Below the pieces are notes generated by a model that worked only from the letters and a program-made list of their open reading frames with translations, ran no database searches and had not been told where the DNA came from. The position numbers and the translations under genes were made by a program. A stretch of 64,000 bases of DNA, from the NCBI GenBank assembly GCA_034780895.1, contig JAUZTB010000066.1:19938051-20002050 (forward strand). Direction: 5' to 3'. Position 1 is the first letter of the stretch; each line of letters opens with the position of its first letter. Shown here in pieces: positions 8,925 to 57,560 of this stretch. The DNA is from Rhynchobatus australiae. Its lineage: Eukaryota.

Positions 8925-10130
8925 TATCTACTATAAACCCATGGAGTCACACAGCGATCTCTACTACATCTCCTTCCACCCAGTCTCCAGTAAGGAAGCC
9001 TTCCCTTTCTTTCCGTCTCTCCATCTCTGCTGCATCTGTTCTCAAGTTGAGGCTTTCCTCCTCCTTTGAGATGCACGGGTTCCCCTCTGCCCTAGTTGAT
9101 GGAACCCTCACATCCATCTTCTAACTTCTGCTTTTATTGCCATTATACCCAGACAGAAGAGAGGTTGGGTTACCTTGGATCTCATCTTCACGCCGCCTGC
9201 CTCCACATCCAGTATATCATCCTGCCATTTTCACTAGATCCAACAGGATTCCACCGCCAGTCATATCTTGCCCTCCCCCATTTCTGCTTTCTGTGACCCC
9301 TAGTCCCCTTCCCACTCACCCTTCCCTGTCCCCTGGCACTTTCCCCTGCAAACCATAGTTGGTGCAACACTTGTCCCTGCATCTTCTCCCTCACCACCGT
9401 TTAGGGACCTAAATGGCCTTTCCAGGTTTGGCAGAGATTCTCTTCTGCCTCCTCCAACCTGGTCTGTTGCATTTAATGCCCGTGACTTGGCGTCCTCTAC
9501 ATCAGCAGGGCCAAACATAGAGCAGCTGACCATTTTGCAGAGCACTTGTGGTCTGTCTGCAACAATTGTCTTGCATGTCATTTCAACTCCCCTTCCCATT
9601 CCCACACCGACTTGTCTTCATCCTTTTCTGCTGCCAAGGTGAGGCCAAACACAAATTAAGAAAAAAATTACCTCATATTCCGCTTGGCTATGGACATTGA
9701 AGTTTCCAATTTTAGATAACCCACAACCCTTGAGGGGTTTTCTCACTCCCACCAATACACTAAGGTTCTTTGTTCACTTTTCCCATTCCTCACCCCTTTT
9801 GTTATTTTCCCCCACCTGGTTCAATCTGCCATCACCTACATACCCATTCACCTGGGTTTCTTTTCCCTTGGTTCACCTTTCCTGTTCCCTCCTCCACCTG
9901 GATCCATCTGTCCATCATCCTCTCTCATCATCTGGCTCCACCTATCACATACCAGCCTCAGTCTCACGCCTGTCTCTCATTTCCCTCTACACTCTCAGTC
10001 CCGAGGCAGGGTCTGGAGCTGAAACATCAACCATCCCTTTGCCTTCACAGATGCTGCTTGACGTGTTGAGTTCTTCCAGTGTTTTGTTTGTTGTTCCAGA
10101 TTCCAGCATCTGCAGTCTCTCTTGTCTCTG
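8925..10130 (+). mobile_element. Penelope-like retroelement remnant (RT C-terminus, GIY-YIG endonuclease, 3' terminal repeat)
   Basis: IYYKPMESHSDLYYISFHP at about 8926 resembles YYKPTDSHSYLDY.S.HP. FQVWQRFSSASSNLVCCI*CP*LGVLYISRAKHRAADHFAEHL at about 9420 resembles the GIY-YIG block. The ORF ends near 9719, followed by a pyrimidine-rich UTR and the CAGATGCTGC..GAGTTCTTCCAG..TTCCAGCATCTGCAGT terminal repeat. Many stops. Confidence 0.85.
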
Positions 10131-13100
10131 TTAAATTTAACCTAACCTGGTCATTACGAAGCTTGACTGGTTTAGCTTCACTGCATGTTTTACATTCCCT
10201 CTTTTTATGAAATATTGGAAAATACAATAGTTTTGTGAAATCTGACTTGCACGTGCAGGATTAGGATTTGCTTTGAACTTATTTTATTAGATTTTTGGAG
10301 GTTTCTTTCTGCTTAATGAAAGGGTAAATGATTATTTATCCCCAGGATGTTTTAGAGTTTTATCTGTTGTAGTACAATTCAGCTGACATTGTGGTTTAGT
10401 TGTTTGCTGAGATGGCAGGATGCTTAATGTTTTCATGACGATACTATAAATCAGTTAGCTAAGCAGTTTTGAGATAAGGGAAGGGACAATGAAAGTACAG
10501 AATGAAAACAGTTTCATCTGTTGTTTTGAAGGAAACACTTTTCTACTGAGAATGTTCACAATAACACTTCTCATGCCATAATTAATTATCAACGACCATA
10601 GTTCATGACAAACTATAAAAATCAAAAGCTCTTAAATGTCAGAGAGCTAGAAAGGGAAAATTGGTTGGAACCAAATGAGAAAGAGAAATTCAGTGGTAAT
10701 GTTTATTATTCTGCAACAACTCATGTTTAAAGAAGTATTTATCTGGACTTGATCAATAGTAGAATACCCTGCAAACTATATTTGGTGTCAGGATTTGAAT
10801 TACATTACAGTGTTGAAGTCTGTGGAGAATAACATTAGCTAGGGCTCAGAGCCAGCATTTCACTCAATCCTCTGAATTTTCTGCCTGGCATTTTAGGTCA
10901 ACATTGATTTAATTTCTTAAAATCTTTAAGAATTTTGAAAATACCTATTATATCTCTTCCCCACTTCCCTGGTTTCAATGAAAGAANNNNNNNNNNNNNN
11001 NNNNNNNNNNNNNNNNNNNNNNNNNNNNNNNNNNNNNNNNNNNNNNNNNNNNNNNNNNNNNNNNNNNNNNNNNNNNNNNNNNNNNNNNNNNNNNNNNNNN
11101 NNNNNNNNNNNNNNNNNNNNNNNNNNNNNNNNNNNNNNNNNNNNNNNNNNNNNNNNNNNNNNNNNNNNNNNNNNNNNNNNNNNNNNNNNNNNNNNNNNNN
11201 NNNNNNNNNNNNNNNNNNNNNNNNNNNNNNNNNNNNNNNNNNNNNNNNNNNNNNNNNNNNNNNNNNNNNNNNNNNNNNNNNNNNNNNNNNNNNNNNNNNN
11301 NNNNNNNNNNNNNNNNNNNNNNNNNNNNNNNNNNNNNNNNNNNNNNNNNNNNNNNNNNNNNNNNNNNNNNNNNNNNNNNNNNNNNNNNNNNNNNNNNNNN
11401 NNNNNNNNNNNNNNNNNNNNNNNNNNNNNNNNNNNNNNNNNNNNNNNNNNNNNNNNNNNNNNNNNNNNNNNNNNNNNNNNNNNNNNNNNNNNNNNNNNNN
11501 NNNNNNNNNNNNNNNNNNNNNNNNNNNNNNNNNNNNNNNNNNNNNNNNNNNNNNNNNNNNNNNNNNNNNNNNNNNNNNNNNNNNNNNNNNNNNNNNNNNN
11601 NNNNNNNNNNNNNNNNNNNNNNNNNNNNNNNNNNNNNNNNNNNNNNNNNNNNNNNNNNNNNNNNNNNNNNNNNNCTCTTTTCAGCATGTGGAACTATATG
11701 TTATCAAATTACCTGGGTAAAGAAGAGCACAGACTGGTCCCACCAATACTGGTGAAGTAAATGATCAGGACATCTGATTTTATAAGTGATCAGGTCATCT
11801 GCTCTATCAGATTTATATAGCTAACTTATGCCCTTGTCTTTGAATTTTATTTGTTAAAATTATGTGCTTGTACAGATTTCTGTATGTTGAGTATTGTCTA
11901 TAATGATCTCTTGACTTGCCTATAATGTATTTTGGATATAAAATCTGTGACATGTATTTAGGTGCTTGAAAAGACATATGCAATGTGTTTGGTGCTTGTT
12001 TATGCATTTCTTTCAGTTGCAATGCCTTTATTTATGTTTTATCTCATATTGGTTATCTAAGAATAATGGTCTAGATTCTCCAATCTATGCCAAAGCTTTT
12101 TGCTGACCTCGATGGAAGATGCTCACAAATATAAAGCAGGCACAGAAGCATGAGTTTTCCTTTTTCTGATCTAACTCTCTTTCTGCAACTTCTATAGTGA
12201 CCTGTAGCATCTAGTTATAGTGATGTGGCTGAGGTTAATGAATTGAGGAATTCTGGCAGTAAATCAGGAAGATTAAAAAATGTTACAGATTTTTAATAAC
12301 TTCTTGAAATAATCTTACAAAGAATGAAATAGTTTGTTTCCCAGCAAAAAGCTCTCCATGCAATTTTCTAAAGTACAAAAGTTCTTAATTTTTTGAAATC
12401 ACACAATTGTAATTTCATTCTGTGGGAATCAATTTTTCTGGGCCAGAGTGATTTTCAGCACGGTTTATGATTAGAATGCCATTGAAATCTGAATTGTATC
12501 TGATTCAAGGAGGCAAACCATGTTTTATCTTTTAACAATAGAAATAGTGTCTTAGGGTTAGGGTTGAAAATAAAATGTTGAAATTCACATCAAGCAATTG
12601 ATTCTGTTAATTGCATCTTCATGCCCTGTGGAGGTGTGAGATTTCACTGAAAACAAGTTCGGGTTTTTCACTTTTAACTGTAAATATGCATTTNNNNNNN
12701 NNNNNNNNNNNNNNNNNNNNNNNNNNNNNNNNNNNNNNNNNNNNNNNNNNNNNNNNNNNNNNNNNNNNNNNNNNNNNNNNNNNNNNNNNNNNNNNNNNNN
12801 NNNNNNTACCCAATGTTGTTCAATGTGATTTGACTTCTGGGATAGTGTTTGATTTTTCTAACCCTTTTGGATGGGTATAGTTTGATGGGTATTTCACTGA
12901 GCCATAGGATTATTCATCTTAGTTCCCCCTGTGAAGATGGATGTGTTTGGAATAATAGCTGATATCTTTTCTCTGGGGGATTTTTGTTTCATTGGGTAAA
13001 TTATGATATTTGTGAATGGAGAGAGCTTCTTAAATTGTGTCCAATATGTGCAGTGCTGTTGTGGTGCAGCCAGGAAAGCACAAAAGTGGCAGACAATAAC

Positions 13101-13889: not shown

Positions 13890-15335
13890 ACATTGAATTC
13901 TCCAACTTCAAGTAATTCCCACACCCCTTCCCCCATATCCCCCACCACCATGCTTCTTCTTTTCTTCCCTTTCCTAGCCTATCTCTCTTTTTTCTACCCC
14001 TCTTTTTTTTCTCTCTCCTTACCTTTGATCTGTCCCCCAGTGGGCTGCTCTCCCCCTCCTCCGCACCTGCCCATCATGCTCTCTTACCTGCATCTACCTA
14101 TCACCACCTTGTGCCCACCCCGCCTCACCTCTTTTGNNNNNNNNNNNNNNNNNNNNNNNNNNNNNNNNNNNNNNNNNNNNNNNNNNNNNNNNNNNNNNNN
14201 NNNNNNNNNNNNNNNNNNNNNNNNNNNNNNNNNNNNNNNNNNNNNNNNNNNNNNNNNNNNNNNNNNNNNNNNNNNNNNNNNNNNNNNNNNNNNNNNNNNN
14301 NNNNNNNNNNNNNNNNNNNNNNNNNNNNNNNNNNNNNNNNNNNNNNNNNNNNNNNNNNNNNNNNNNNNNNNNNNNNNNNNNNNNNNNNNNNNNNNNNNNN
14401 NNNNNNNNNNNNNNNNNNNNNNNNNNNNNNNNNNNNNNNNNNNNNNNNNNNNNNNNNNNNNNNNNNNNNNNNNNNNNNNNNNNNNNNNNNNNNNNNNNNN
14501 NNNNNNNNNNNNNNNNNNNNNNNNNNNNNNNNNNNNNNNNNNNNNNNNNNNNNNNNNNNNNNNNNNNNNNNNNNNNNNNNNNNNNNNNNNNNNNNNNNNN
14601 NNNNNNNNNNNNNNNNNNNNNNNNNNNNNNNNNNNNNNNNNNNNNNNNNNNNNNNNNNNNNNNNNNNNNNNNNNNNNNNNNNNNNNNNNNNNNNNNNNNN
14701 NNNNNNNNNNNNNNNNNNNNNNNNNNNNNNNNNNNNNNNNNNNCGGAGAGAGATACAGAGTTCACATTTCTGGTCAAATGCACTTCATCAAAGTGGAAAA
14801 AGTGAGAAAGCAAGCATGTTTTAAGTTGCAGAGAGGGAGAGGGTGGAGAGAATAGAGAGGAATACCTGTGCTTAGGTGGAGATCAAAGTTGTCATGGCAG
14901 CTATTACAGACAACCCCCATATTATTGCCATTCAGGAAACGGAAATTTGCCCTTACAGAATTCACAAATCGTTACCCAGAAATTTGAGAGGTGGATTAAT
15001 ATTTGCTCTCGTGGAGTTTGTGGAAAAAGTAAATAAATAAGTACAAATTTTTTCAACTCACTTTTCTTGATGGCACCTGTTCTTTAAATACTGGCAGTTT
15101 GAGATAGAAAAGAAACAAAAGACGTATCCAGCAAGATCTTAAATTGTTGAATTTGATAGTGAATCCAACGGCTGCAATGTACCCAGACTGAAAATAAGGT
15201 GCTGTCCCTCACGTGTGCATTGAGCATCTCTGTTTCTTTCTCCACAGATGCTGCCTGGTTTGGCTTGCTAACTTTTTCCAGTATTTTCAGTTTTTGTTTA
15301 AGATTTCCAGCATTTGCAGTTTTCTTTTTGCTGCT
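13890..15335. mobile_element. Cluster of Penelope-like 3'/terminal-repeat fragments in both orientations around a gap
   Basis: CATTGAATTCTCCAACTTCAAGTAA (ORF end, IEFSNFK*) plus CT-rich UTR at 13891-14136. Inverted terminal-repeat arm at 14745-14900, minus-strand ORF-end piece at about 15130-15225, and terminal repeat at 15228-15330. Confidence 0.7.
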
Positions 15336-17459
15336 CAGGCACCTGAAAATGGGGATTTCTCACTGCTGATACTGTGAGTCCTTTGTGGGGATCTTTCTTT
15401 GAGACAAGGACCATTGCCTTGCTGTTGACAAATTCTAGGCTATTGTATCCATCCTTGGAAGAGTTAAACCAATTTATTCATGCAGTATTGAATTTCTAAT
15501 ACAGAGATTGTATAAATTTGGTTTTAAATTAGATATTGTATTACCTTGGAGTGTGCGGAGCATAACATCCTGTCCGCAATGGGTCATAATTAGTACTGTA
15601 TACAAGTAACCATCAAAACATATGGAGTGCCTGGTGAAACTGATGCTTGAAATGTCTTGTATTACATCAAGATGTTGCATTTTTTTTAAAGTTAGATTAT
15701 ATGATGTAATACCTTGTAGCAACTGAATGCAGAATATTGCAGCTGCTGAATTGCACCTGCAGTGCCATGTGCTAGATTTTAATCCAAAGTCACAACATCA
15801 GGAGCTGAGTGCATGCAACTCAGTTTTATCTACAAAATCCAAAGCCCTATTGTGAATTCATTAATACCAGTAAGTTATGAACATAATCCAGTGCTACATT
15901 ATAGTGTAAGTTATTATAAATGGCAGANNNNNNNNNNTAATTAATTTCTAACACAAATGTAAAAGGTTTTCCTCTTATGGATATGAGGAATAACTAATGC
16001 TTTTGGGCTTTTACCTCACTATTCATTGTTTTTCCATTAAATTAAAATTTACTTTTCGCTCAGGTGATCAACACAACCTGCAGCTATCATGAAAAACCCA
16101 GTATGGGATCTATATTTCAGTCAAGTATTTTGATTTGACTCAGATTGGGTTTTGTGTGAGATTATTTTTTAAACAGTTGTGTTCCCTTTTCTAGCTTCAG
16201 TTAAATTATATAAATCAAAGTTAAGTTATAATCATATAAATCTCTGACAAGATTTTTTATAAATTTACCACGTCCGATTATTCCAGCTGAATCATGTTTC
16301 AAGTTCATGTTTTGAGGACATTATTTAACACTGTGAGTGACTGAAATGGAATCTCCACCAGACTTCACTCATACCTTTAATTTCTGTGTTAAAATAAAAA
16401 TCAAAGTCAGATTGGGGAGAAGACAATAATATTGACAATGATCTTGTGTGTGTAAGGAACTTTCTCCTTTGCAAGCTGGTAAAAAAAAGTAATAATTGAA
16501 AACAAATTAAAGTACTTTCTTGTTGCAAAAAGATAATATTTTCAGACACTGATACATTATTCACAGTATACTGTGATAAAATTCACCGATTCTAGAATGC
16601 GATAGCATTCTTTAAAATAACATTAAACTGCATTGGAAATCAGATCTTAAAACAAATGATAAAGAATTCTTGGTGGTGCTCCAGTAAAAGATGTGTTCAG
16701 TAGAGAATGATTCTCTTATCTGGACATAGAAAACCGGTTGACTCATACAGTTGTGATGCCTTATGAAAAATGATGAACGCATCTCCATTCCATATCACAG
16801 TGTCCTGGGGAGATGCTGCACCAGATATTCAGGCTGATTAGGGGATAAAAGTCTGGGAGATTCATCACCAAGCCCTTGAAATAATGCCAGCTGGTCCAGG
16901 AGCCTTCAAGGGTAATCATAATCAAATAATAACTGTGTTTTATTAATTGGTCATCCAGCCAAAAGGTTCCACTTCACCTGTACTCAGTTCTTGACCAGGC
17001 ATTCACTTCTCACACTCAATCCCTAAATTTGCTGGAGCACATATACCATGATGATCAGTGTGTTGTGAGCTACAAGCTTCATCACTGAGACGTGGAGCCC
17101 CAGATGGCTCTTTGGAGATGAGAAGAATGTAGTAGAATTCTGGTAACGTCACTCCTGGCATTTCCTGCAGAGTGAGAAACTGTGAGTCCATGGAATGCAT
17201 TCTAGATGATGTTAGACAGAGAAACAAAACATGAGAAGAGTGGTGTTCACCATGGAGGTTCAACCCTCAGGTTCACTTTGCTCCATTCCACCTACATTCT
17301 CTGTCCCAAGTGTCTCAAAATCATGAAGGTTTATTGTTTCAGGATTACTCATAACTTTTTATGATGTGCTACCTTTACTTGAAAACAGAAAAGAAGTCTT
17401 GTGATATCAGTCTAAGTGCCTGTCCATCCTTGCCTATTCTGGTAGTTTATTAAATATGA

Positions 17460-17630
17460 ACTGAAAGCACTGGAGCCACTCAACAGGACAGGCAGCATCA
17501 TCAGTTGAAAGGTCTTTGACCTGAAACGATAAATCTTTTTCTCTTTCCACAGGAGCAGCCTGACCTGATGAGTGCTTCCGGCATTTTTAGCTTTAATTTC
17601 AGGTTTCCAGCATCTGTAGTTTTTAATTTG
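17460..17630 (+). mobile_element. Short palindromic Penelope-derived element with degenerate hammerhead-like core
   Basis: Left arm GCACTGGAGCCACTCAACAGGACAGGCAGCATC is inverted to GAGCAGCCTGACCTGATGAGTGCTTCCGGC. Centre reads CAGTTGA-A-AGGTC-TTT-GACCT-GAAACGAT. Confidence 0.75.
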
Positions 17631-17799
17631 CAATTTATTGGCCCTGCACAGCAATTTGATCTTTTTTTTCATTCTCGTAAACAAAAGAAGTAAAAGAGAG
17701 ACTTGCAAGAATGATAGGTAGGGATAGACAATATAATTCTATGAGTAAATCAGCAGATAAGGCTGGAGTTTACAGAAGTAATAAAAGGGCAAAACTAAA

Positions 17800-18165
17800 G
17801 GCTTCAGAGTGGCACAACTAGTAGAGCTGTTGCCTCACAGTGCCAAAGACCCAGGTTCAATACTGACCTTGGGTGCTGTCTGCGAAGACTTTGCAGGTTC
17901 TCACTATGACTGCATTGGTTTCCTCTGAGCGCTTCTGTTTCCTCACACATCCCAAAAGAAGTGCCGATTGGTAGCTTACTTGGCGATGGTAAGTTCTCCC
18001 TAGTATGTTGGTGACTGGTAGAACATGGTGGGGGGGGGGGGGGGAGGGTTGTGGGGGCACAGAAAGAAGAGATTAAGGTTGGATTAGTGTAAATGGGTGG
18101 TTGATGGTTGGTACAAACTTGGTGTTCTGAAGGGCTTGTTTACATGCTGTATCTCTATGACTAAA
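17800..18165 (+). mobile_element. HE1-like V-SINE, near full length
   Basis: GTGGCACAACTAGTAGAGCTGTTGCCTCACAG..CCCAGGTTCAATACTGACC (A/B boxes), V-domain, internal poly-G, CR1-type tail TGAAGGGCTTGTTTACATGCTGTATCTCTATGAC. Confidence 0.88.
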
Positions 18166-22500: not shown

Positions 22501-24484
22501 AAAACACCATCATATTGAGTGAAGAATAATTTAAATGAAACCAGGAAAAGAACACCCAAGCAATATATGATGTAATTTCAATCAAAAATACCAGAATAAA
22601 GTTTATCTAGCTGCAGTCAATGTGCCAAGGATAACTATTAGAAGAATTTGGGGGTTGGTGTTGTGTGAGTTACTTGCTAGATTTACTTGCATTTACAACA
22701 GAGATTCTGATAGTGATTGTGAGACAGGAAAGGAGTTGTGTGCGCATGGGGGGAGGGTGGAGGTTGATGGCAATTGCTTAGTGAATGGGAGAATTTGGGA
22801 CTGGGACAGAAGTACACATTCTGTACTTTGTGATGCTGAATGTAGTGTCAGGACCTGTTCTGGATATTCCCAGGTTTCCTGGTCACAGCCAAACAGATTG
22901 ACATTCCAGTTGATTGTTGAGGATAAAGACAAGCAGGGTGTGGAGCTGTGGTAAATTTCGCACGGGGGAATGGAGAGGAATTGTGNNNNNNNNNNNNNNN
23001 NNNNNNNNNNNNNNNNNNNNNNNNNNNNNNNNNNNNNNNNNNNNNNNNNNNNNNNNNNNNNNNNNNNNNNNNNNNNNNNNNNNNNNNNNNNNNNNNNNNN
23101 NNNNNNNNNNNNNNNNNNNNNNNNNNNNNNNNNNNNTGGAATAACACTTTCACTGTTGCAGGCCCACAAGCACTTATCTGTTCAATCTTCTTCATCAGTT
23201 GCCAGGTTTCCTAAGATCAGGGGGCCCAAATAGCATTTAACTTAAAAGATGAGCAAAATTTGGAGCAATGCAGCTTCATTAAGCTATTTTAATGAGGAAC
23301 CTGCTCTTGCTCCGAAGTCTGGTAGGTTTAGGACTAGGTAGACCACATTTAAATTCTAAACACTCAACTCTCCCTCCACCTGCTCTGAATGGGAAAAATA
23401 AATCTGCATCATCTAAAGTTATTTGTAAGAGGCTCAGTGAGTAGTTTCATAAAAGTTTGATAAACTGTTGTGCAAATTCAGTCTTTATTTCAGGGAGGTG
23501 CGATTATTATACAGCTAAACACTATTATGAGCATAATATGTTATAAATTCTGTGCTGTATGTTCTTTATTTCAATGCTTGTTGACTTATAAATATTATTT
23601 GTCTGTTATAAAAGAACTTTTTCTCCACTGTTAGCAGTATTTTCGTTTTGGCAGCTGACTTTGTCTTTCAGAAAAGTGTGTGTAAATGTTTGAATTGGTT
23701 TTTTGGGAATAAGGGAATATTACCCATGTTGCCAGGTGTATGTCAATATTTTCACTCAACACCAATGTGTTCTCGATATTAGTCTGGCAAAGTACTGTTG
23801 ACTGAGTCACTACATGGTATAGTGTGCTGCAGACATTACTCCTCTAAGACATTGCATGTAACTCAAAAGAAAAGCAGTGCCTGCAACAATGAGTTGGAGA
23901 GCCGCAGGACTTGGGATGTGAGTTGCTGCATTAATCAGGGTGCTATGTTTTGATGGTTTGCAAATATTTTCCATCCCCCACCCTACCCTGTCATTTCATT
24001 AAACCAGTGGGTTTTTGAATTTTACCTTCAATAGGGGTGCGAGCAGTTGCTTGGACATAAATGACTGCAGCAATAAACAAAATACGGTGTTGCAGAAATC
24101 TCATCAAGATCTCAAAAGATCAGCCTAAAGTCAGAATAGCAGTAAAGATGGGAGATAGGAGCAATAATGTACATGGATAACTCATTTAGCACTCAGGATA
24201 CATCCCCAGGAATGTGAGTGCAATTGAATCAACACTAAAGAACGTCATTATAAAAATTTTTAAAAATGCTGGAAACCCTCAGCAGGTCAACCAGCATCCG
24301 GGGAAAGAGAAACAATGTTTTGCTAGAACTGAGGAAGATAGAAAACAAGTTAGTTTTAAGTTGCAGAGAAGTGGAGGTGGGATTGGTAGAACAAAGGGAA
24401 TATTTTTTTGTGTTATGTGTTGCTAGTAACAGTAAGATGGGATCAAGAGGTCATTATTGCATTATGTATAAAGAGATGTGCTAT

Positions 24485-24795: not shown

Positions 24796-27700
24796 TGGCT
24801 GTATTGCTGTGCCAGGAGCTGTAATGCTGTGCCAGGAGACTGGCTCGAACCTCTAGGCTCCTCATTGCTGTACTAGGAACCTGGTTGAAGGCTCATCCCT
24901 TTGCTGGCACTCCCACTGCAATGAAATGGTTAAAGTGATCTCATCACCACGTAATTCAGTGTGGAGCAAACCTCAGAGGCAATGTGTAATGGGTCTCTGA
25001 AGATTTCTCTATGGCAACAAGTTCAACAGCAGTTGTGGCCCTTGAGCTTGTTACCGCAGAGAAATCTCTGGGTTTGGGAGAGCTGTGCAGGCAAACAAAG
25101 AGTGTGGCGGACAGCAGTTTCTTTCACATCCAACAGGATGTTGAGAGAGCCTATAGGATCCAGGCGATTATGTCAATACGTGAAGCAGCAGCTACTGGTC
25201 CCCAGCAATGGTCCACACTCACCGTACCAGCATGCTGCTCTGAGCCCCACACTTAGCTCTGAATGGCTGCAATGCTACCCAGCTTGCCCAGCAGCCACCC
25301 CCACAGGCAGCCATTACACATCACCTTGGTGGTTCAATGCACATTGATCAGTGTGTCAGTGAGATCATCATTTCATTGCTGTGGGAACACCATTGGAGAG
25401 CAGGGATAAGTGCAAGATTCCCTGCACAGTAGCATGCACCCGAGCAGATGTCTTTTTTAAAGTGCAGGTTGGTTCTTACCTGTGCATGTTTGGACTCCGG
25501 GATCAAGAGTGCTATCGTCAATCAGCGCTCTGTGGGGTATTGCTTTGTGTGTAGGGTAGAACTAGATAAGAAAGATAAAGCTGACCGTACTGAAAGTAGA
25601 AGTGTTATTGCATCTCTTTTTGGTCCACTTAACAAAATGTATCACCTCACACTTTACTGCACTGAATTTCATTTGCCACATGTTTGTCCACTCCACAATA
25701 TTCTGAGTCATTTTGAAATCTATTGCAATCATCCTCACTGTTTACAATATTTCCAAATCTCTTGTCTTCTGTCATGATGGATGAATTTAGTTGGGTGCCT
25801 CTTTACTTAAGTAACTGTAACGTGTGCATGTCTGGATACTGTGTTTGTTTGTGGTGCGTACTTATGGCAAAAAAACTCTGTCCCTACTCATTATCTTTAA
25901 CAATTGTCTCTTGGGTGACTGACAGATGTGAATAGGAATAAATATAGTGCTTGGTTTTAGCAAGTGTATGAAGGAAAAACTGTTGAGAGAAAGTATAATT
26001 GTAAAATATTCCAAGCCTAGTTATAAACCATTATTATCTCTCTGGTGGTTTATACATTTACTTGAATATGTTTCCAAGAAACTGATGAAAATGTAATCTG
26101 TTGGATAAATTATTTCCCAGGATTAGTTTGATATTATGAATTGAGCTATTACAATTGCTGTAGTGAATACAATTTTTTGTCATTTAGCATCCACTTTTAG
26201 TATTGGATATATTATTGTTGCATTAAAGAAAAATATTTGCCTCATTCCTAGAAATTGATTTTACATCAGTATGCCACATATGTAAAATAATAGGATATTG
26301 AAGCTTAATCCCTTTTGTGAAAATAAGAACATTTTACATTTTTGCTATTTTCTGTTCCTCATTCACAGTTCTTATGNNNNNNNNNNNNNNNNNNNNNNNN
26401 NNNNNNNNNNNNNNNNNNNNNNNNNNNNNNNNNNNNNNNNNNNNNNNNNNNNNNNNNNNNNNNNNNNNNNNNNNNNNNNNNNNNNNNNNNNNNNNNNNNN
26501 NNNNNNNNNNNNNNNNNNNNNNNNNNNNNNNNNNNNNNNNNNNNNNNNNNNNNNNNNNNNNNNNNNNNNNNNNNNNNNNNNNNNNNNNNAGATGCTGCCT
26601 GACCTGCTGAGTATTTCTATTTTTATTTGAGGTAGCTAAGTTGGCTGCTTTTTGTTTCTTGTATAATTTCTGTATTTTCACAGCCAATAAATTATGACCT
26701 TTACTTTTCATTGTAAATTATTCTGTATCTGTTTTTTAGCTGAACTATAATTTGTAGCAAGGATACAATCAAAATATTCTTCAAAGTTATACATTTATTT
26801 TTTTTGGATCCATAGCTGACTTACTTATTAACAATAACCAGGGAATTATAGTTAAACATTTCTCAGTTACTTTCCCAAATTTCCACCCCTGGAATTTAAG
26901 TGTACTCAATGCAGTTAGCTCAATGAAAACTTGGAAATAGAGATGAGAGGAAGAGATTTGACTCCTCACTCCTCATCCAATTATGATCCTAATAATTACT
27001 GAAGAATTGCAAGTGCATGTGTGATAAACATGTTATATTTTATTTTATTAAGTTTGGATGCTATTGCTTTTCACTGCTGGAGATATAATAACATTTTTGA
27101 GCTGCTGCATTTACTTTAAATATGTTTACACACAAATAATTTGGTTTTATTATGAATCTGAAATTGCGTAACTCTCTTTCTTGACTTGTGGGAACTGCAG
27201 TTTAATGAACAGCCTAAGACATTCATTTGAAAGGAGTTTGCAGCTGCAGGTTCTTAATTTGCAGCTATTTGATATTCTGTGTTTGCATGGAACCCAGATG
27301 TGGTGGCACTTTCCTGAGAAATCCTAGCAGTTCAGCAAGGAACTGCTGGCAATTCCCAGCAAACTCTGAGCCTTCAGTTCAAATACTGCAGAGGGAAGTG
27401 GCTTTCCTATTTGGGGAATAAGATACAGGTGGATAGTGGAGATATAGAGTCACTATAGTGGAGATTTAGTTGATAAGTTTGATAGCAAACTTTGTGATTA
27501 ATAGACTAAGTACTGTAGGTAATATCAAGCTGCAGACTTTAGAAAGAACCAATTTTCAACCCTGATATTGGCTGGGTTATGTGACAATATTAAATGATTT
27601 TTCAACAACCTTCACTAGTCCAGGAATGGAGAAAGATTTAAAAAAAATAATTGGCCAGGATTCCTATTCTGATTACAGTTCAACAGCCCTTACCTGGAAA

Positions 27701-28309
27701 GTAAGGTTTTAGATGATCTTGAAGCTAGGAAATTACACAAGTGTGATGGATAAGGGTAGACCAGATTGGGGCAGTTGGACTGGATCCCTCCTATTTTGTC
27801 GTCTTCAATATTTTCTGGGATTTCTTGCATTTGATGCATCAGCCAAATATGGTCAGTCTAATTTGACAAAATTATGGTGAGTTCAAAGATCCCACTTCCA
27901 TTGTGTTGCATGTAAACCGACATTTTAAGAACTTTAAAATGCAGGTGGTTCATGTTGTAAGTAAACTTTCAGTGGAGGACAGTGCCCAAAAGGCATGTAG
28001 ATGATTGGGGACAATGTGAAGATAGCGCATGGGAAAGTGTATTTTAGAATTTGCCTGTTTGGAATATTTCTGTGATATTTGTACAAGATTCCTAGTATAA
28101 TGGATGACAATAATAAAAATTGAAAATACTGGAAATACTCAGCAGTTCAGGCAACATGAAAGAAAAGAGGATAGAGTTAATTTTTCAGATGGACTGTAGC
28201 TCTATGATAGTATTAGAACATAGAAAAACTACAGCACAGTTCAGGCCCTTCGGCCCACAAAGCTGTGCGAAGCTGTGCTGTATTCTCTCTTGTTGATGGT
28301 AATGGATCA

Positions 28310-34254: not shown

Positions 34255-34810
34255 TGTTGATACTAGAACTGAGAAGGTATAAAAAAAACCAGGAAACACT
34301 GAAAAGATGGATAAAAACAGAAAATGCTGGAAACATTCAGCAGGTCAAACAGCATATATGAGAGTGAAACAGAATTAATGTTTCAGGTCTGAGAACTTTT
34401 GTCATAATTGGAAAAGAGAAAATAAGCTTTGAGTTGCAGAGAAGTTGAGGAGAGGGATGGATTGACCAAAGGAAATATCTGTGATAGGATGATGCTGGGG
34501 TTGCCGTGAGGATATGTTGTAGAGGTCAATTGTAGAGGGATTATTGCTGACAGAGAGAGAGTGAGAATGCAAACAAAGACATTTTTATTTTGTATTTCTA
34601 GCACCTGCAGGTTTTTGATTTCCATTTACTGAAAAGATGGGGATTGCTCCCCTAGAAAGGAGAAGATTGAAACATAATGTTATACAGGAATTTAAAATTA
34701 TATTGGTTTCAATAGGCCTGGCACAGAGGAGATGTTTTCACATGCAGGAAACCCAAAACTAGGGACCACAAGTAGAAGATAGTTGATAAAAATCTAGTAA
34801 GAAATTCAGA
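34255..34810 (+). mobile_element. Degenerate CR1 fragment interrupted by a Penelope-derived element (34311-34627)
   Basis: CR1 text CAGGAAACACTGAAAAGATGG|GGATTGCTCCCCTAGAAAGGAGAAGATTGA resumes after the insert. Identical 13-bp repeat ACTGAAAAGATGG at 34298-34310 and 34628-34640. Confidence 0.75.
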
Positions 34811-35904: not shown

Positions 35905-36085
35905 AAAGCTCAAAATTATAGGTGCTGGAAATCAGAAATTGAAATAGGAAATGCTGGAAATAATCAGCCAGTCAGATGGCATCTGGAGAGAGAAACAGAG
36001 TTCTGGTGAAATAAGGCCATAGACCTGAAACAGATGCTGCCTAACCTTATGAGTATCTGGCATTTCGTGTTTGTGTTGCAGATAC
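35905..36085 (+). mobile_element. Short palindromic Penelope-derived element
   Basis: AAATGCTGGAAATAATCAGCCAGTCAGATGGCATCTG is inverted to CAGATGCTGCCTAACCTTATGAGTATCTGGCATTT. Centre reads CTGGTGA..AGGCC-ATA-GACCT-GAAAC. Confidence 0.7.
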
Positions 36086-42960: not shown

Positions 42961-45900
42961 TACTTTATTATTTTAATCCTGAATGGTATAGGGTCTTTCA
43001 AATTTGCAAACTCATATATATGTAGTAATCTAAACTAGTGATTGCTGCAGACATAATTTCATGCTGGGATTAAGTCATTATTTGGAAAGACAGCACAAGA
43101 CTACATAATGTGATACCAATGTAATAGCTTATCTATTTGATATTCCCACCATTTTAACAGGATGTATACATATAGAATTTGATTGTGCCTTGCAATCATA
43201 ACTTTGTTACCAGTGGCAATTTATTCAGTTCCTGAACTTTAAAATTCGAACAGAATGGAAGTAAAATTGGTCTATGAATAACACACTGGGGCCTGGAAAT
43301 TCCTTTGTACAGCTACAAGAAAAAGATGATGAAAATCAGCCATGATCATATTAGTGACAGAGCAGGCTCATGGGGGCAAAGTGGCCATCTCCTGCTCCCA
43401 ATGTGTGTGTTCATATGAAAATCAGTCTAACCTGGAGTAGAGCCATTTCTTGGATCCNNNNNNNNNNNNNNCTCCCAATGGAAAATTAGGCAGGATTTTC
43501 TTTTGTTACGGCATGTATCTTCTGGTGCAATATCTCTGATTAGTGTCAAGTATCACCCAATGTTACAAATGCATCACAGCATGATTCACAGCCGTAAAAA
43601 CAACAGTTTTTATTTATACCCAGAACAACCCTGTTTTCCCTAAAACTGTGTTCTTTGAATGGACAACACTCAATTTGCATTTTGTCCACCCTGTGACAAG
43701 ACCCTTAATTAAATTACTACATCACGCATATACCTGGTCTACTCTGTTATGGCATTCAATGTCACTGTCACTCTCGGAATCGTGCAGATTACATCTACCA
43801 TTTTTCATAAATTGCTGATTATTGCTGCTTTTGGGAATTCAGCCTAGCTGCATACTTGAGGAGAGAAGATTTCATCTACTTTTCCATCAGTCTGCAGGAG
43901 TAGGCAGAATGCAGAATGGGCATGCGGGTTTGCTCGTATTTCAAGCTGCCCCAGACTTCTGTCATTATGATTCTGGACTTGTGGTATTATTATTCCTTCC
44001 TGACACTTCCCTGGCAACCTACTGCTATGGGCACATGCCTTGAGCCCAACACTATTTCCATGACTCCTTCATTTACCACCCACACAAAAGAAGATGTCTC
44101 TTGTGGCCACAGTACTTCACTGGTACATATAGTCCCTTCTGAACCCTTGGGAATGCTCTCCCACCTCTTTCGTTATTGCAATATATTTCATTAAGTACCA
44201 ACTATCTCCTGGAGCTGGAAAAGTGCTGTTTGTGGTATGTTACTTTCAGAGCAGGTTGATGAGTTTGTAGATAGCAGCTTCAAGAACTTATGATTGATCA
44301 ATAAAGATCGGCATATTGAAACTGATGGTGTGGAGTTGCACAGGGAAACCAAATAACAGTTCTGTGAACCTCACATTGAAGATCATGATCATTTTGGGAC
44401 CTNNNNNNNNNNNNNNNNNNNNNNNNNNNNNNNNNNNNNNNNNNNNNNNNNNNNNNNNNNNNNNNNNNNNNNNNNNNNNNNNNNNNNNNNNNNNNNNNNN
44501 NNNNNNNNNNNNNCTTTTGTTTGCAAGGGTTTGCTACCTTTCAAAAAAGAAAGCCTTGAGCTCCAGCAGGTTCTCTTGGGATATTCCCCAACTGGCATGA
44601 CAGGTTGGAAAGAAATACAAGAATTGTTGCTCATGTGTAATGCTACAGTCATGGCTTTAAACATTCGGGTGTGTTTGGGATATGTGGCATGACTATTAAT
44701 AGTTTTTAGCCACATCCATCAAAATCTTTTCCTCAAACCTTTGCGTGTGGCCAGGATAGCACTTATGTTCAAACAGATGAAATTTCCAAATTCATTGCAA
44801 GCACCATGTCTGAAATGCACTCAACACAAGTATTTGACATGGGCCTAGTCTATATTGTGCATATGAGAGATAACAGCTCTGCTGATTCAGAAACCATCTG
44901 TAGTCATAAAGCTTAAACTATGAAAAAAATATGCATTCCCAGCTACCTGGATCTCAACCTGAATTTCACTGATAATTATGGCAACAAGAGCAGAAAAAAG
45001 TATTTAATTGTCTTGCAGCTGAGTTGAAAATATTTACTGTCATCAGTTCTCATTTCCACATCAGAGATTGAAACTAATCCGTAGCACAGGGAATAATAGC
45101 TCAGAATTTGTGGATATAATGATGGAAAAACTGGCAGCAATCCTCACTGAATGAGGTGCAACTTTTTTGTATTGCGTAAGTATTGTTGCATAACCTTTTC
45201 TTCCCTGATAAACAAATACATGATTAGAATCTAATTTCTTTGGAATACTTATTTCAAAAGTCCTTTGATTTTAAAATGGTGAAACAAACTATTTTTAATA
45301 GATTTACGTTATTTCAGCTTCTACCTNNNNNNNNNNNNNNNNNNNNNNNNNNNNNNNNNNNNNNNNNNNNNNNNNNNNNNNNNNNNNNNNNNNNNNNNNN
45401 NNNNNNNNNNNNNNNNNNNNNNNNNNCTTCTACCTTAAACCCGTGTATGTGATTCATTCTTTGTTCTTTTTTATTAAAAAATGAGTAAAAAATTATACCT
45501 ATTAGTGCTTTGTGCAAAAAAAGAATAAAATACAGTAGATACTGGAAACAACAAATGCTGGAAATATTCAGCTATTTGGGCAGCATCTATAGAGGGAGAG
45601 CAACAAGGTTAATGTTTGAGGTCAATAACTTTTCATTGATATTTTGCTTTTGGAGAGCTATTTTCTGTCCTATTTTTCTTCCAGTCAGAATTCTTTACTC
45701 TGGATACCTATTTAACCTACTTGAAGGCAGTGTTGTAACTAGCCAACACAGTGCCAATTGAAGAGGGTGTCTGACAGCACACTTTGGAAAAGAGGAAATC
45801 AATGGCAAAAGATATGCAGAAACATTGTTTGCAAACTTTTAGAGATTGGTGGTGAGTGCAATCCCTTCACTACTGAGTGAGAAATTTAGCCAAAATATAC

Positions 45901-46059: not shown

Positions 46060-46255
46060 TGGATCCTGCAGCCACTGTCTGTAAGGAGTTTGTACGTTCT
46101 CTCCGTGACTGCATGGATTTCCTCTGGGTGCTCCGGTTTCCTCTGGGTGCTCCAGTTTCCTCCCACATTCCAAAGACAGATGGGTTAGTAGGTTATAACA
46201 TGGGTGCAATTGGGCGGCACAGGCTTGTTGGGCTGGAGAGGCCTGCTGTATAGAT
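46060..46255 (+). mobile_element. V-SINE, short copy
   Basis: CACTGTCTGTAAGGAGTTTGTACGTTCTCTCCGTGACTGCATGG..GGGTGCTCCGGTTTCCTC (internally duplicated)..CCCACATTCCAAAGAC, then CR1-type tail GGGCTGGAGAGGCCTG. Confidence 0.8.
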
Positions 46256-51175: not shown

Positions 51176-51203
51176 TCCTCGTGGCACACTTTGTTTTTGT
51201 CCA

Positions 51204-52949: not shown

Positions 52950-53181
52950 TTAAACAAAACCTTAAGGAAAAACAGCAAATGCTGGAAATATTCAGCAGAT
53001 CAGGTCACATTTGTAGGATGAGAAACAGAGTTAACATTTCAGGTCTGATATAGGGTCTTCAACCTGAAAAGTTAACTCTGTTTCTCTTCCCACAGATACA
53101 GCCTAACCTGCTGAGTATTTCCAGCAGATTCTGTTTCAAATTTCCAGCTTTGCAGTTTTTTTTGATTTAAACAAAAACTTA
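52950..53181 (+). mobile_element. Palindromic Penelope-derived element with flanking 15-bp direct repeat
   Basis: ~75-bp arms at 52971-53045 and 53061-53136 are inverted. Flanks TTAAACAAAACCTTA (52950-52964) and TTAAACAAAAACTTA (53167-53181). Centre CTGATAT-A-GGGT-CTTCA-ACCT-GAAAAGTT. Confidence 0.85.
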
Positions 53182-55429
53182 CTTTTAAATGCTGAAATAG
53201 CCACACCATGTACTCAAGCAAATTGTCATTCCTTGTTAACAACATATGATTGATTTGAGAAAATCAATCCATAGCAGACTTTAATCAAAGTTTTATCAAA
53301 TCATGTATTCAAGGTTTCTCTAATTTAGATTTTCTGGGAGCTTTAGCCAAATTACCTTCTACATTTCAAAGTGCCAGACCATTTTGATTTCTTTGTAGAT
53401 ATTTTAAGCAGGTTTAATTAGTGAAATAATGAATTCTAAGATTAAAACATGAATAGATTCCTTTCAAACTTGTGGTAGAGGACAAAATTAGAGCTCATCA
53501 ATGTAAGGTGGTCACAGAAAATCACGGAGTGAATTCAGAAGAAATGTCTTTACCCAGAGAGTGGTAAGAATGAATTGGAAGGAAAGGAAACCCTTAATTT
53601 AACTGCACCCCATCCCTCCTTCTCAGGTATTCTGTTACTAGTACATATTAAATGTCCCAACAACAGCCCAAGGTTGACCCACGTGACCTACCACCTTGAG
53701 GCAATTATCCCAGTAAATAGAAATGTCATTTAGCCTTGTAAACCCCATCTTTAAACGGTTCTCTAGGGGACAGGTGGGTATTCATGGTTTTTGGGATTTG
53801 TGGCTGTTTCTAGAATGCATTCTCTGCAACGGTTAGGGGTTAGTATGAGTTCAGTGATGATTTTATAAATAATTTATCTGGAGGCAGGATAAGCATATGG
53901 GAAAGAAGGGGTTAAGTAGAAAGCATTAGATGCGGAAGGATACTCGAGAGGAACGTAAACATGGTCTNNNNNNNNNNNNNNNNNNNNNNNNNNNNNNNNN
54001 NNNNNNNNNNNNNNNNNNNNNNNNNNNNNNNNNNNNNNNNNNNNNNNNNNNNNNNNNNNNNNNNNNNNNNNNNNNNNNNNNNNNNNNNNNNNNNNNNNNN
54101 NNNNNNNNNNNNNNNNNNNNNNNNNNNNNNNNNNNNNNNNNNNNNNNNNNNNNNNNNNNNNNNNNNNNNNNNNNNNNNNNNNNNNNNNNNNNNNNNNNNN
54201 NNNNNNNNNNNNNNNNNNNNNNNNNNNNNNAAAATATGTAGTAAATTTAAGGTTCTCTATTGTAATTATTTTAAGACAATTTATTTTGACCTGTATAGAT
54301 CATTGGTGGGGTGACATTTGGAGTAATATGTCTAATTCATAAGGACATTCATGTATTGGGGATAGTTCAGAAAAGAAATGATTCTGGGAAACTGAGCTAA
54401 CGTTTACAAGGAGAAATCTCTCAAGCTGAACTTACAGAAAAGAAAATTATAAGAATGTGAGAGTGTTGATAGGTACAGATGTAGATGTAAGCACTATTTG
54501 AATTAAGCATTAATTGCAGAACTGAAGGTCATTGTTTCAAAATTAACCTGCCTCCAGTTAAGTTAAAGATAAGAATAAATTAGATCTGCAATGTTGATGA
54601 TAGGTGGAATGATTCCTAGTTAAAAACAACTGAAGTAGAGTTAAATAACTAATAAAATGCAACTGATTAAATATGTGCCCTGGATTGAGTTTGGTATTTA
54701 AAGAGTTACACGTGTGAAGTGATGATTGAAGACTCTTCAGGCTATGATAATTCTTGTGGTGCAAAGGTGGGAATGTGTATATCAGATTCACATATAAATT
54801 ACAAATGCATAATCAAGGGAGGATTAGACCAATTAAAGACCAAAAAGGCAATATGGAATGTGCATTGGATTCTAAATGAATACCCTAAATGTGCCTTAAC
54901 TAGGTAAGAGGATGTTGCCAATATAACAGTAAAGAACGAAGTAATAGCACCATTAGACAGGATAATAACAGATCTAGATAAGATATTTAAGAGGTTGGCA
55001 GTCCTCATTATAGAGAAGCCAGCCATTTGAATAGTGTGGAAGCTAGGATCCTAAGGGCTGAACTTGCAGAAACTTAAGCAATCATCTTCTAATCCTGGAG
55101 ACACAAAAGGCTGCAAATACTATAATCTGGAGCAAAAAACTGCTGGAGGAACTCAGCAGGTCAGCTTGTCAAATCCCAGCATTTGCAACCTCTTGTGACT
55201 CTACACGTCGCCTTCTTGCTCTGTCTCTATTTCTGCTTCTCCTTCTCCCCTACCTGGCTCTATCTGCCCAACATCTCTCTCCTTACTTGGTTCCACCTAT
55301 AACCTACCAGCCCTTGTCTCACCCATCCCTCTCACCTCTTTATACTGGCTATCTCTCCTCTATACTCCCAGTCCTTAATTGGAAGTGTTGACCATCCTTT
55401 TGCCTCCAGAGATGCTGCCTGATCCACTG

Positions 55430-57560
55430 AAGTAGGAAAGCAAAGGCATGTGAAAAATACTGTCAAATAAAGTGAATGAAAATCAGAAAAGATTTTATAA
55501 AATATGTAAAGAGCAAGAGGATAAGTAAGGAAAGGGTGGGGTGGTTTAGTTTACCATTATGGTATCTATATGTGGAGGCAAAGGATATGAGTATGGTTTT
55601 AATGAGTACTTTGCAGCTGTCTTTATGAAAGAGGGGAAAATTGCCACTGCTGCAGTTAAGGAAGTAAAGAGTGGAAGTTTTGGATTGGCTAAACTGAGCA
55701 AAGGAGAAAGTATCAAAGGGTTAACATATTTGAAGTAGATAACTTGCCAGGCCTGGATGTAATATAGTCCATGATGTTAAAAGAAGAAAGGGAGGAAATC
55801 AAGGTGGAACAAACAATCTGCTGGAGGAACTCAGCAGGTTGAGCTGCATCTGTGGGGAGTAAGGAATTGTTGATGTTTTGAGTTGAAACTTGGCATCATG
55901 GAGGATCTGACCATTATTCTCAAATACATCCTGGTGCCAGAGGATTGCTAAAGTTATACCATCATTCAAAAAGAGAGGAAAGGATAAAAGANNNNNNNNN
56001 NNNNNNNNNNNNNNNNNNNNNNNNNNNNTGCACAAGTAGTTGAAATCAGTTCTGAGAGGTAGACTTGACTTTCATTTAGAAAGACACAGATTAGTTGAGG
56101 ACGGTCAGCATGTGTTTGTCAAGGGAAAGTCATGTCAGACTAGCTTGACAGAATTTTTTGAGGAAATAATAGGGTGGCTCATTGAGGGCAGTTTGATGTG
56201 GTCGTCGTGGATTTTTGCACGGCTTTTGACAAGGTCCCACTTGGCAGGATGATCAAATTGAGAATGACAAATTAAATCCAAAATTGGTTCAGTGACAGAA
56301 AGTAAAAGATGAGATTTGAGAACTGCTTTTAGTGGCTGGAAGACTGTTACTCATATGGTTCCATGAGGCTCAGTACTCAACCCTTTACTTCTTGCAATAT
56401 ATATTAATGATTTAAATTTAAATGAAGGAGAATGAGAAAGAAATTTGCAAATGAGAAACAATGGCCATGTGGTTAACAGTAAGGAGAAAAACTGTAGACT
56501 GCAGGAAAGTAAAGGCGGCTTGGTCAGTCAGGCAGTAAGGTGGCAAATAGAATTTATTCCCGAGAAGAGTAAAATGGTGCATTAAGGGAGGTGCAACAAG
56601 ACAAAGAAATACACAATAAGGGGAAGGACATTAAGAGATATGGTAGAAAAGTGGGGCTTTGGGCTGTATGTCTGCAGATCCTTGAGAGCAACAGATTAAT
56701 AACCATATATTTTGGCTAATGAGCTAACCTTTCAGATCAAANNNNNNNNNNNNNNNNNNNNNNNNNNNNNNNNNNNNNNNNNNNNNNTCTCTTCCCATAT
56801 ATAGAGTCTGAACTGCTGAGTATTTCCAGCATTTTCTGTTTTTGTTTTAGATTTCCAGCATCTGCATTTTATTTTTGATTTTCATTTGCTTCTCGGAAGG
56901 TGAAATTTGGCTGGGTAGGTCACCTTTGACTAGCAGGGACAGAATGGGCTAAACAGCCTCCTACTTTGTCATAAAGCTTCTATGATTCCTTTTTCATGGA
57001 AGAATGATATAACTTGCAGTTTTTAAAGTAGAAATGGGTACTGAGAGGCTTTGTGAAGATAGCAATGAAAAGACTGTGAGCAAGCCTGTGGCTCTATTAT
57101 TAAAAGCACAAGTGCAAAATGAAGTGTCATGCTCAACTTGTGCAATACATTGTTTAGGCCTCGGTGTCTTTAATTTTGGGTATTGCACTTTAGGTAGGAT
57201 GTCAGGGTCTTAGTAAGGGTACAGACCAGATAGATTAGAATGGTAGAATGGATGAGGGATCACAGATGTCTGGAGTGCAGGGAAGATTAAGAGGAGAATT
57301 GATTAAGAGAAGTCTGCAAACTCATGAATAGTTTTGTAAGAATAAATAGGGGGAAACTATTTTCAGTAGCAGAAGAATCAGTAACCACAGATGGCACACT
57401 CAGTATGGTTGGCAAAAAAGATGCAGAGGAACTCTGCATACTCAGTTGTATGATTTTAAACTCGCTGTGTGAAAGGGCAATACAAGCAGATACAGCAATA
57501 ACTTCCAAAAAATATTTGAAGGAAAATATTTCCAAGTTTTCAGGGAAAGAGCAAGTAAGG
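55430..57560 (+). mobile_element. Long degenerate CR1 ORF2 remnant with nested Penelope-derived pieces (about 55805-55900 and 56790-56890)
   Basis: KSVLRGRLDFHLERHRLVEDGQHVFVKGKSCQTSLTEFFEEI, DF..AFDKVP, VP*GSVL..LL.AIYINDL, then C-terminal CR1 sequence at 57050-57560. Confidence 0.85.

What the first reader, a model, noticed from the sequence alone, without database searches (positions are those of the whole stretch)
9995..55900. Dispersed Penelope-derived repeat family whose consensus rebuilds a minimal hammerhead ribozyme
Seen: seven copies share the layout [7-mer]-short hairpin-GAAA-[4-mer]. The 7-mers are CCGAGGC (10001, +), TTGATGA (about 14791, -), CAGTTGA (17502, +), ATGACAA (about 34405, -), CTGGTGA (36003, +), CTGATAT (53045, +) and ATGATGC (about 55899, -). 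Their per-position majority is CTGATGA. The hairpin is AGGTC-nnn-GACCT (perfect at 17510-17522). After GAAA (AAAA in one copy) come CATC, TGTG, CGAT, CATT, CAGA, AGTT and CATC, mostly consistent with CpG decay of GAAACGTY. Established: Penelope-like elements carry minimal type I hammerheads (CUGANGA..GAAA..NUH) with a palindromic, dimer-dependent stem III. Inference: the ancestral unit was AGTT-CTGATGA-A-AGGTCnnnGACCT-GAAACGTT-AACT. These abundant short elasmobranch repeats would then be ribozyme-bearing, retrozyme-like non-autonomous elements. No copy in this window has an intact core.
Basis: partly seen in the sequence, partly recalled or inferred. Interest (0 to 1): 0.7.

Follow-up and report, generated by a model that had tools for sequence, protein, structure and literature searches.

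The report
Penelope stumps carrying minimal hammerheads
The repeats are decayed tail-end stumps of Penelope-like jumping genes that carry the already known minimal hammerhead ribozyme motif, not a separate ribozyme-driven element; one large lineage of them has an altered ribozyme core that likely no longer cuts, which is worth a bench test.

Summary
The seven sites are real, and the family consensus does rebuild a minimal type I hammerhead: 2,591 exact intact-core matches genome-wide, 0 in the control. The retrozyme reading fails. The units are 3′ ends of 5′-truncated Penelope-like elements (PLEs). The window copy at 10001 follows a decayed GIY-YIG ORF end, 25 of 30 GIY-YIG loci have the unit downstream, and target-site duplications and head-to-head inversions occur, while tandem arrays are rare. 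Two extras: (1) an ORF-bearing lineage, about a quarter of copies and including window sites 10001 and 55899, reads CUGAUG-C-A at core position 9 (1,024 exact matches), a form absent from the 56 published examples I read; (2) 5′ ends pile up at the hammerhead's 5′ edge, not at the cleavage site, so templates were likely uncut. Hammerheads in PLE ends are known (PMC4209133). This scan noted the stumps and the sharp start in other genomes; I saw no note of the position-9 lineage. No cleavage was tested.

The parts
8870..9725 (+). Decayed 3′ part of a PLE ORF (CxxC linker, GIY-YIG endonuclease); 5′ limit approximate
   Evidence: nhmmer 9290-9725 E 4.7e-89; tblastn to the L188 GIY-YIG fragment 39% identity, E 4.8e-18; frames read
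9726..9994 (+). Pyrimidine-rich 3′ UTR of the same element
   Evidence: sequence; same layout in ORF-linked loci
9995..10134 (+). Decayed hammerhead plus tail, lineage S3b (C at core position 9)
13940..14136 (+). 3′ UTR of a young-lineage (S1) element that runs into an N stretch; core not visible
   Evidence: blastn to L188, 80% over 202 nt, E 1.8e-43
14745..14850 (-). Short UTR plus decayed hammerhead, oldest-lineage type; tail ends at N
15138..15326 (.). Tail fragment (15228-15326, +) beside an ORF-end fragment (15231-15138, -)
17459..17637 (.). Head-to-head unit: short inverted arm 17499-17459 and forward S4 copy with a deletion in the 5′ core; perfect stem II at 17510-17522
24262..24390 (-). 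S4 copy with UTR and tail, core largely deleted
26590..26619 (+). Tail fragment next to N
28114..28190 (-). S4 copy truncated inside the core
34273..34500 (-). S4 copy with about 90 nt of UTR, decayed core and tail
35909..36075 (.). Head-to-head unit; the inverted arm meets the forward copy at stem I; forward copy has a deletion after GAAAC
45530..45636 (-). S4 copy starting at the core
52950..53180 (.). Near-perfect palindromic unit (arms 52970-53044 and 53062-53136) with a likely 14-bp target-site duplication (52950-52963, 53167-53180; 13 of 14 letters)
55103..55430 (.). Head-to-head unit with UTR between the arms; forward core partly deleted
55763..55900 (-). Decayed hammerhead plus tail, lineage S3a (C at core position 9)
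56787..56872 (+). S4 tail next to N

Best explanation
These repeats are the 3′ ends (hammerhead plus about 60-105 nt of tail) of 5′-truncated, endonuclease-bearing Penelope-like retrotransposons, likely of the Neptune clade, now decaying as genomic fossils. Shown: the unit follows an RT - CxxC linker - GIY-YIG ORF and a pyrimidine-rich UTR; it has 10-15-bp target duplications, two 3′ end zones and frequent head-to-head inversions; its consensus has every element of the minimal type I hammerhead. Inferred mechanism: the element's own RT-endonuclease nicks the target, starts reverse transcription inside the tail, copies through the uncut hammerhead, and very often stops at the motif's 5′ edge (likely the transcript start, or a structural stop); the cDNA end then joins the target or folds back on stem microhomology to make the inverted arm. 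The hammerhead in the master elements would cleave only as a dimer or with protein help, as reported for other PLEs. One ORF-bearing lineage (S3) amplified with C at core position 9 and is likely catalytically weak or dead.
For: ORF link: window 9290-9725; L188 holds RT (tblastn to the PLE ORF of L062, E 2e-29), CxxC linker, GIY-YIG (Pfam E 0.0024, below the cut-off), UTR and hammerhead in order; 25 of 30 loci fetched by GIY-YIG DNA have a same-strand unit within about 1.2 kb downstream (my count); 60 of 99 ORF ends in hand have one within 900 nt, in all lineages. Core consensus in the unbiased sample: C3 93/98, U4 88/105, G5 101/106, A6 99/112, G8 108/119, A9 78/119 (C 35), extra A 115/120, G12 114/155, A13 145/158, A14 148/157, A15.1 143/159, U16.1 151/162. 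The pair closing stem I covaries, C-G against T-A (Fisher p 2e-5, 106 copies; lineage-level, not independent events). Target duplications scoring 10 or more: 18 of 76 units, 0 of 600 shuffled pairs; 3′ ends cluster at +60..74 (56 of 132) and +95..104 (46 of 132; upper mode capped by my consensus). Inversions 27 of 170 loci. 5′ ends: 51 of 117 core-intact copies end 0-10 nt before C3 (about 0.05 per nt) against 8 at 21-69 nt (about 0.004 per nt), and a uniform-junction simulation gives no such pile; 4 of 138 solo ends lie within 2 nt of the cleavage site against 28 at -35..-31. Literature: PMC4209133, PMC11167929, PMC8557442, PMC3846280.
Against: No intact full-length ORF of this family was found; all ORF evidence is from decayed copies, and the window fragment did not itself hit the L062/L063 proteins. 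Clade assignment rests on the linker motif, with no tree against named PLEs. 58 of 76 units show no clear target duplication. The 5′ pile is broad (about 10 nt), not a single base; among 50 solo ends examined, about five are a short-UTR variant and about nine are short inverted arms, so the pile is smaller than the raw count. No clear excess of a cap-derived G (C 40, G 28, A 22, T 10 in the first 100 matches, my count). Short stumps could in part have moved on their own; I cannot exclude that. Cleavage was not tested.
Confidence: 0.85

Rival explanations
1. Retrozyme-like non-autonomous element: a short hammerhead unit that is transcribed, self-cleaves, circularises and is re-inserted by PLE enzymes.
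For: Short units far outnumber ORF-bearing ones; many begin right at the hammerhead's 5′ edge; one 2.5-unit array with its own spacer exists at L035; retrozymes were reported in one chondrichthyan genome and derive from PLE ends (bioRxiv 10.64898/2026.07.22.740005).
Against: Same-strand pairs in 6 of 170 loci, against 27 with inversions; the L035 spacer occurs at one locus; every lineage has ORF-linked members; copies span the cleavage site instead of starting at it.
Confidence: 0.07
2. PLE stumps as in the best explanation, but the S3 core is a working natural variant: the A next to G10.1 acts as A9 and the C is bulged between G8 and A9.
For: S3 keeps all other core letters, stem II and the stem III palindrome in two sub-lineages; the A before G10.1 is nearly invariant (115 of 120; 91 exact matches with another letter); some natural core variants do cleave (PMC3088659 section 8).
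Against: All 56 representative minimal hammerheads in the PMC4209133 supplement have A at 9 by my reading; S3 stem I is down to 3 bp; A9 pairs with G12 and its phosphate binds metal (recalled, from no call); the two sub-lineages differ too little for core retention to prove selection.
Confidence: 0.3
3. The motif is a chance resemblance made by majority voting over a few decayed copies.
For: No Rfam hammerhead model hits the window at E up to 10; no visible window copy is intact.
Against: 2,591 exact intact cores against 0 control; unbiased consensus and stem I covariation; position at the PLE 3′ end, where the motif is expected.
Confidence: 0.01

Closest known systems
Minimal hammerheads (min-HHR) in the terminal repeats of metazoan PLEs (Cervera and De la Pena 2014, PMC4209133; seen: parts 1-2 of 4 of the text, supplement file 2 parts 1-2 of 3; file 1 not available)
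   Same: CUGANGA, extra nucleotide before G10.1, G10.1-C11.1, GAAAC-GUH with no stem III loop, 3-5-bp stem I, position at the PLE 3′ end, mostly solo copies from truncated elements.
   Different: No cartilaginous fish among its 56 examples; none has a letter other than A at position 9; copy number here is far larger (about 3×10^5 loci extrapolated, a few thousand intact).
EN+ PLE insertions of the Neptune/Nematis type: 5′ truncation, adjacent inverted copy, 30-40-bp tail, Zn-finger-like linker (PMC8557442, passages; PMC3846280, passages)
   Same: RT - CxxC linker - GIY-YIG, inverted 5′-truncated copy, two 3′ end zones about 35 nt apart, target duplications.
   Different: A hot spot of 5′ ends at the hammerhead's 5′ edge is not described in the passages I read; no intact ORF recovered here.
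Anolis Poseidon PAc (Frangieh et al. 2024, PMC11167929; seen: parts 1-2 of 4)
   Same: RT starts inside the tail just downstream of the hammerhead; unprocessed RNA is the main substrate; hammerhead mutants still insert in vitro.
   Different: PAc's ORF starts in stem II and its cleavage was measured (protein-assisted); here the ORF start is not established and nothing was assayed.
Animal non-LTR retrozymes (bioRxiv 10.64898/2026.07.22.740005; seen: parts 1-3 of 5, supplements closed)
   Same: Type I hammerhead derived from PLE ends.
   Different: Defined by tandem arrays with a hammerhead in each unit; here copies are dispersed, ORF-linked or inverted, and arrays are rare and locus-specific.

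Membership tests
Minimal type I hammerhead of PLEs | Core CUGANGA ... GAAA ... NUH | tested here: met
   Lineages S1, S2, S4:
Minimal type I hammerhead of PLEs | A at position 9 (lineage S3) | tested here: not met
   C in 30 of 32 sampled S3 copies, clustered on the tail alone; 1,024 exact matches with C against 79 with T and 108 with G
Minimal type I hammerhead of PLEs | Extra nucleotide before G10.1 and stem II closed by 10.1-11.1 | tested here: met
   Extra A 115 of 120; 10.1-11.1 paired (WC or GU) in 114 of 137
Minimal type I hammerhead of PLEs | Stem I of 3-5 bp with compensatory change | tested here: met
   C-G/T-A covariation at 2.1-1.1, p 2e-5, lineage-level; outer pairs often broken in S1 and S3
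Minimal type I hammerhead of PLEs | Palindromic 15.2-16.2 without loop (dimer-dependent) | tested here: met
   CG consensus with CpG decay; energy folding did not by itself give the dimeric active fold
Minimal type I hammerhead of PLEs | Self-cleavage as dimer | not testable with these tools
   Needs an in vitro assay
EN+ Penelope-like element | RT followed by C-terminal GIY-YIG, hammerhead near the 3′ end | tested here: met
   (decayed copies)
EN+ Penelope-like element | 5′ truncation, inverted copy, tail, target duplication | tested here: met
Neptune clade | Zn-finger-like CxxC motif between RT and endonuclease | tested here: met
   C-x4-C-x2-C in L188; Nematis shares the motif (PMC8557442)
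Neptune clade | RT phylogeny with named Neptune elements | not tested
   No named reference sequences were fetched
Non-LTR retrozyme | Tandem arrays with a complete hammerhead in consecutive units | tested here: not met
   6 of 170 loci with a same-strand pair; one array, single locus
Non-LTR retrozyme | No coding capacity; lineage independent of an ORF | tested here: not met
   ORF-linked members in every lineage
Non-LTR retrozyme | Circular or unit-length RNA | tested here: inconclusive
   Fragmented RNA-seq of a possibly different species cannot show it

The most novel reading that the evidence does not exclude
An autonomous Penelope lineage (S3) lost a conserved catalytic-core adenosine (CUGAUG-C-A) and still spread to tens of thousands of copies, while stumps of all lineages were copied from uncut RNA up to the hammerhead's 5′ edge. 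Together this is genomic evidence that PLE hammerhead cleavage is dispensable for retrotransposition in vivo and that the motif instead marks the transcript start. If S3 does cleave, it is a natural core variant not among the published examples I read.
Probability: 0.4. Interest if true: 0.6.

Novelty: new member of a known kind. Interest (0 to 1): 0.3.

Why it matters
The main finding is ordinary: PLE ends with minimal hammerheads are known, and this adds a very abundant family in what is likely a cartilaginous fish. What could matter is the open question of what PLE hammerheads do (called unclear in PMC8557442; not needed in vitro in PMC11167929). This genome offers a natural experiment: sister lineages with a canonical core (S2) and an altered core (S3), both amplified, and a very large number of insertion ends that map where reverse transcription starts and stops.

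Tried and rejected
Rfam scan of the window: 9 matches at E up to 10, none a hammerhead, all below gathering scores. Pfam family PF26215 is not in the library. The Pfam GIY-YIG genome search gave 7 matches, 6 on small contigs from a different PLE family, possibly foreign DNA; L062 has its own minimal hammerhead and served only as a protein query. Idea that 5′ ends mark ribozyme cleavage: rejected, no excess at the site. Idea that short-UTR copies are spliced: rejected, the long form has no GT at the junction and microhomology explains it. Idea of a U-at-9 lineage: rejected, 79 matches, mostly C-to-T decay of S3. Cap-derived G at the 5′ junction: inconclusive. L035 array as a retrozyme family: single locus. 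RNA: no RNA holder listed; raw reads of three runs with the same species label as partial holders cover an S1 copy on both strands, with no place where many molecules begin or end and no ORF-end-to-core joint among the 15 joints shown (135 not shown); the library type cannot show ends and the species may differ, so this is no evidence either way (1 of 2 lays used). MFE and co-folding of six natural copies recovered stem II, with stem I in three, but not an active dimer fold. Lunse et al. (PMC5785218) is not held: it surveys PLE hammerhead variants and could already describe the position-9 form. Searches for A9 variants in print and for Penelope hammerheads in sharks or rays returned nothing on point in the listings. 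Rows dropped: L035 and L036 from the profile; L049, L317 and L036 from the hazard count; 9 of 199 arms next to N; 7 of 83 units with N in the flanks.

Full report
Observation. The seven sites exist as described and their majority 7-mer is CTGATGA. They belong to one dispersed repeat with about 15 loci in the window, several of them head-to-head palindromes. No visible copy is intact and Rfam finds no hammerhead. The window lies in a 2.23-Gb animal assembly.

The hammerhead is real at family level. An exact pattern for the core with a GGGTC/GACCY stem II has 2,591 matches in the genome and the control has 0. In 120 evenly spaced 10-kb stretches from 14 large scaffolds (1.2 Mb, 0.98 Mb unmasked) a profile gave 207 hits in 170 loci and 0 in the reversed sequence, which extrapolates to roughly 3×10^5 loci; 3 of these pass an intact descriptor. 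The profile was seeded with core-bearing copies, which can pull alignments towards the core, but the sampled copies were not chosen on it. Their majority gives every core letter, an extra A before G10.1, a CG palindrome with no stem III loop, and U or C at 17. The pair closing stem I covaries, but this reflects a few lineage-level changes. The layout matches the minimal hammerhead of metazoan PLEs (PMC4209133).

It is the end of a Penelope-like element. A Pfam GIY-YIG search found a decayed endonuclease fragment on a large scaffold. DNA searches with it and with L188 found 4,613 and 6,368 candidates. By my count 25 of 30 such loci have the unit on the same strand within about 1.2 kb downstream, and 60 of 99 ORF ends in hand have it within 900 nt (some of those loci were fetched by the core pattern). 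L188, a randomly drawn stretch, shows RT, a C-x4-C-x2-C linker, GIY-YIG, a pyrimidine-rich UTR and the hammerhead in order. In the window the copy at 10001 has the same ORF end at 9290-9725. The linker points to the Neptune or Nematis clades (PMC8557442, passages); no tree with named elements was made. Other PLE hallmarks are present: target duplications in 18 of 76 units against 0 of 600 shuffled pairs, two 3′ end zones about 35 nt apart, and head-to-head inversions in 27 of 170 loci.

Not a retrozyme family. Retrozymes are defined by tandem arrays (bioRxiv 10.64898/2026.07.22.740005). Same-strand pairs occur in 6 of 170 loci. One 2.5-unit array with its own spacer (L035) is confined to one locus. 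Every lineage has ORF-linked members.

Lineages. Clustering 462 copies on the tail alone, without the core, separates S1 (mean divergence 9%), S2 (13%), S3a/b (14-17%) and S4 (16-24%) (BIC favoured 3-4 clusters, so finer splits are descriptive). S3 has C where A9 should be, in 30 of 32 sampled copies; genome-wide the otherwise intact core has C there 1,024 times, G 108 and T 79 times, so it was inherited from master elements. S3 is 42 of 174 clustered sampled copies, about 7×10^4 by extrapolation. In a tree of 38 ORF ends, 17 rows (16 labelled S3 and one S2, all with C or a likely decay letter at 9) group together with modest support (80/85) apart from S1 and S4; one S3-labelled row sits in S1, probably a neighbouring copy. 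Window sites 10001 and 55899 are S3. None of the 56 representative motifs in the PMC4209133 supplement has this form by my reading, the core-variation section of PMC3088659 does not name it in its text (its figure was not seen), and two text searches found nothing; the most relevant survey (PMC5785218) could not be read.

Where copies begin. Of 138 sampled solo ends, 4 lie within 2 nt of the cleavage site and 28 at -35..-31, the 5′ strand of stem I; inspection shows that some of these are short inverted arms or a short-UTR variant. Among 117 core-intact copies, the rate of ending is about 0.05 per nt in the 10 nt before C3 and about 0.004 per nt at 21-69 nt; simulated uniform junctions give no pile. 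Three duplication-bounded solo copies not selected on their flank start at or next to the A of CAGUC (L107, L118, L147). The sequence there resembles an initiator (recalled consensus; an Inr-like TCACT is noted in a rotifer PLE repeat, PMC3846280) and also a splice acceptor (an intron ends at helix I in Drosophila Penelope, PMC4209133; intron passages of PMC2377424). A cap-derived G was not clearly shown. RNA reads were uninformative.

Mechanism. Shown: anatomy, ORF link, duplications, inversions, end positions. Inferred: the PLE protein starts reverse transcription inside the tail, as measured for Anolis PAc (PMC11167929), copies through an uncut hammerhead, and often stops at its 5′ edge, probably the transcript start; fold-back on GTC/GAC microhomology builds the inverted arm, in line with the self-priming idea in PMC3846280. 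The hammerhead of the masters would cleave only as a dimer or with protein help. S3 likely cleaves poorly or not at all (about 0.7) or uses a shifted register (about 0.3).

Earlier notes of this scan (unchecked AI notes) describe the same stumps, the sharp start and 11-16-bp duplications in other genomes. I had reached the stump and start-point readings before looking; the notes prompted the duplication test. The search for the position-9 variant returned no note on it, and the sequence look-up returned nothing.

Verdict. Observation confirmed; hammerhead and Penelope origin supported; retrozyme reading not supported. New member of a known kind, interest 0.3, with the S3 core variant as the one lead worth a bench test.

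Noticed in passing
ORF ends in L069-L097, L156, L164, L196, L198-L227; window about 9720-9996: The ORF stop overlaps a splice-donor-like GTAA (25 of 91 ORF ends read GTAA after the anchor and 14 TAAT) and the UTR ends in a pyrimidine tract plus CAG at stem I: a candidate intron whose removal would keep stem I intact. No spliced genomic copy or read joint was seen.
   Followed up: partly
L162:3941-4100, L186:1350-1530, L247:8240, L175:3894, L244:5614: An old S4 variant with only about 35 nt between ORF stop and hammerhead, explained by a deletion across a short microhomology.
   Followed up: partly
L035:1460-1650 (G000:C1:2828190-2828380): A 2.5-unit tandem array (period 70-76) of an intact S1 core with a unique hairpin spacer; a natural dimer candidate for a cleavage test; single locus.
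   Followed up: yes
L061, L062, L063, L065, L066, L067 (small contigs): A second PLE family with long open ORFs (688 and 735 aa frames), a different minimal hammerhead about 1.15 kb after the stop in L062, and TAACCC-like repeats in the UTR; may be foreign DNA in the assembly.
   Followed up: partly
window 51204-51484 and 52249-52377: Nested inverted repeats of 77 and 104 nt at 99-100% identity around an N stretch; may be an assembly artefact or a very young element.
   Followed up: no
window 62916-63988 and 58740-59118: Terminal-inverted-repeat units (arms of 37-54 nt at 76-84%; 33 nt at 100% around N), possibly old DNA-transposon derivatives.
   Followed up: no
window 2972-3025, 17872-17976, 32812-32921, 46071-46194, 58890-58939: A second dispersed repeat that resembles vertebrate V-SINE/HE1 elements (name recalled, from no call).
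   Followed up: no
window 61521-61862 (-): Frame resembling a CR1-type LINE reverse transcriptase fragment (FADDTK motif; label recalled).
   Followed up: no
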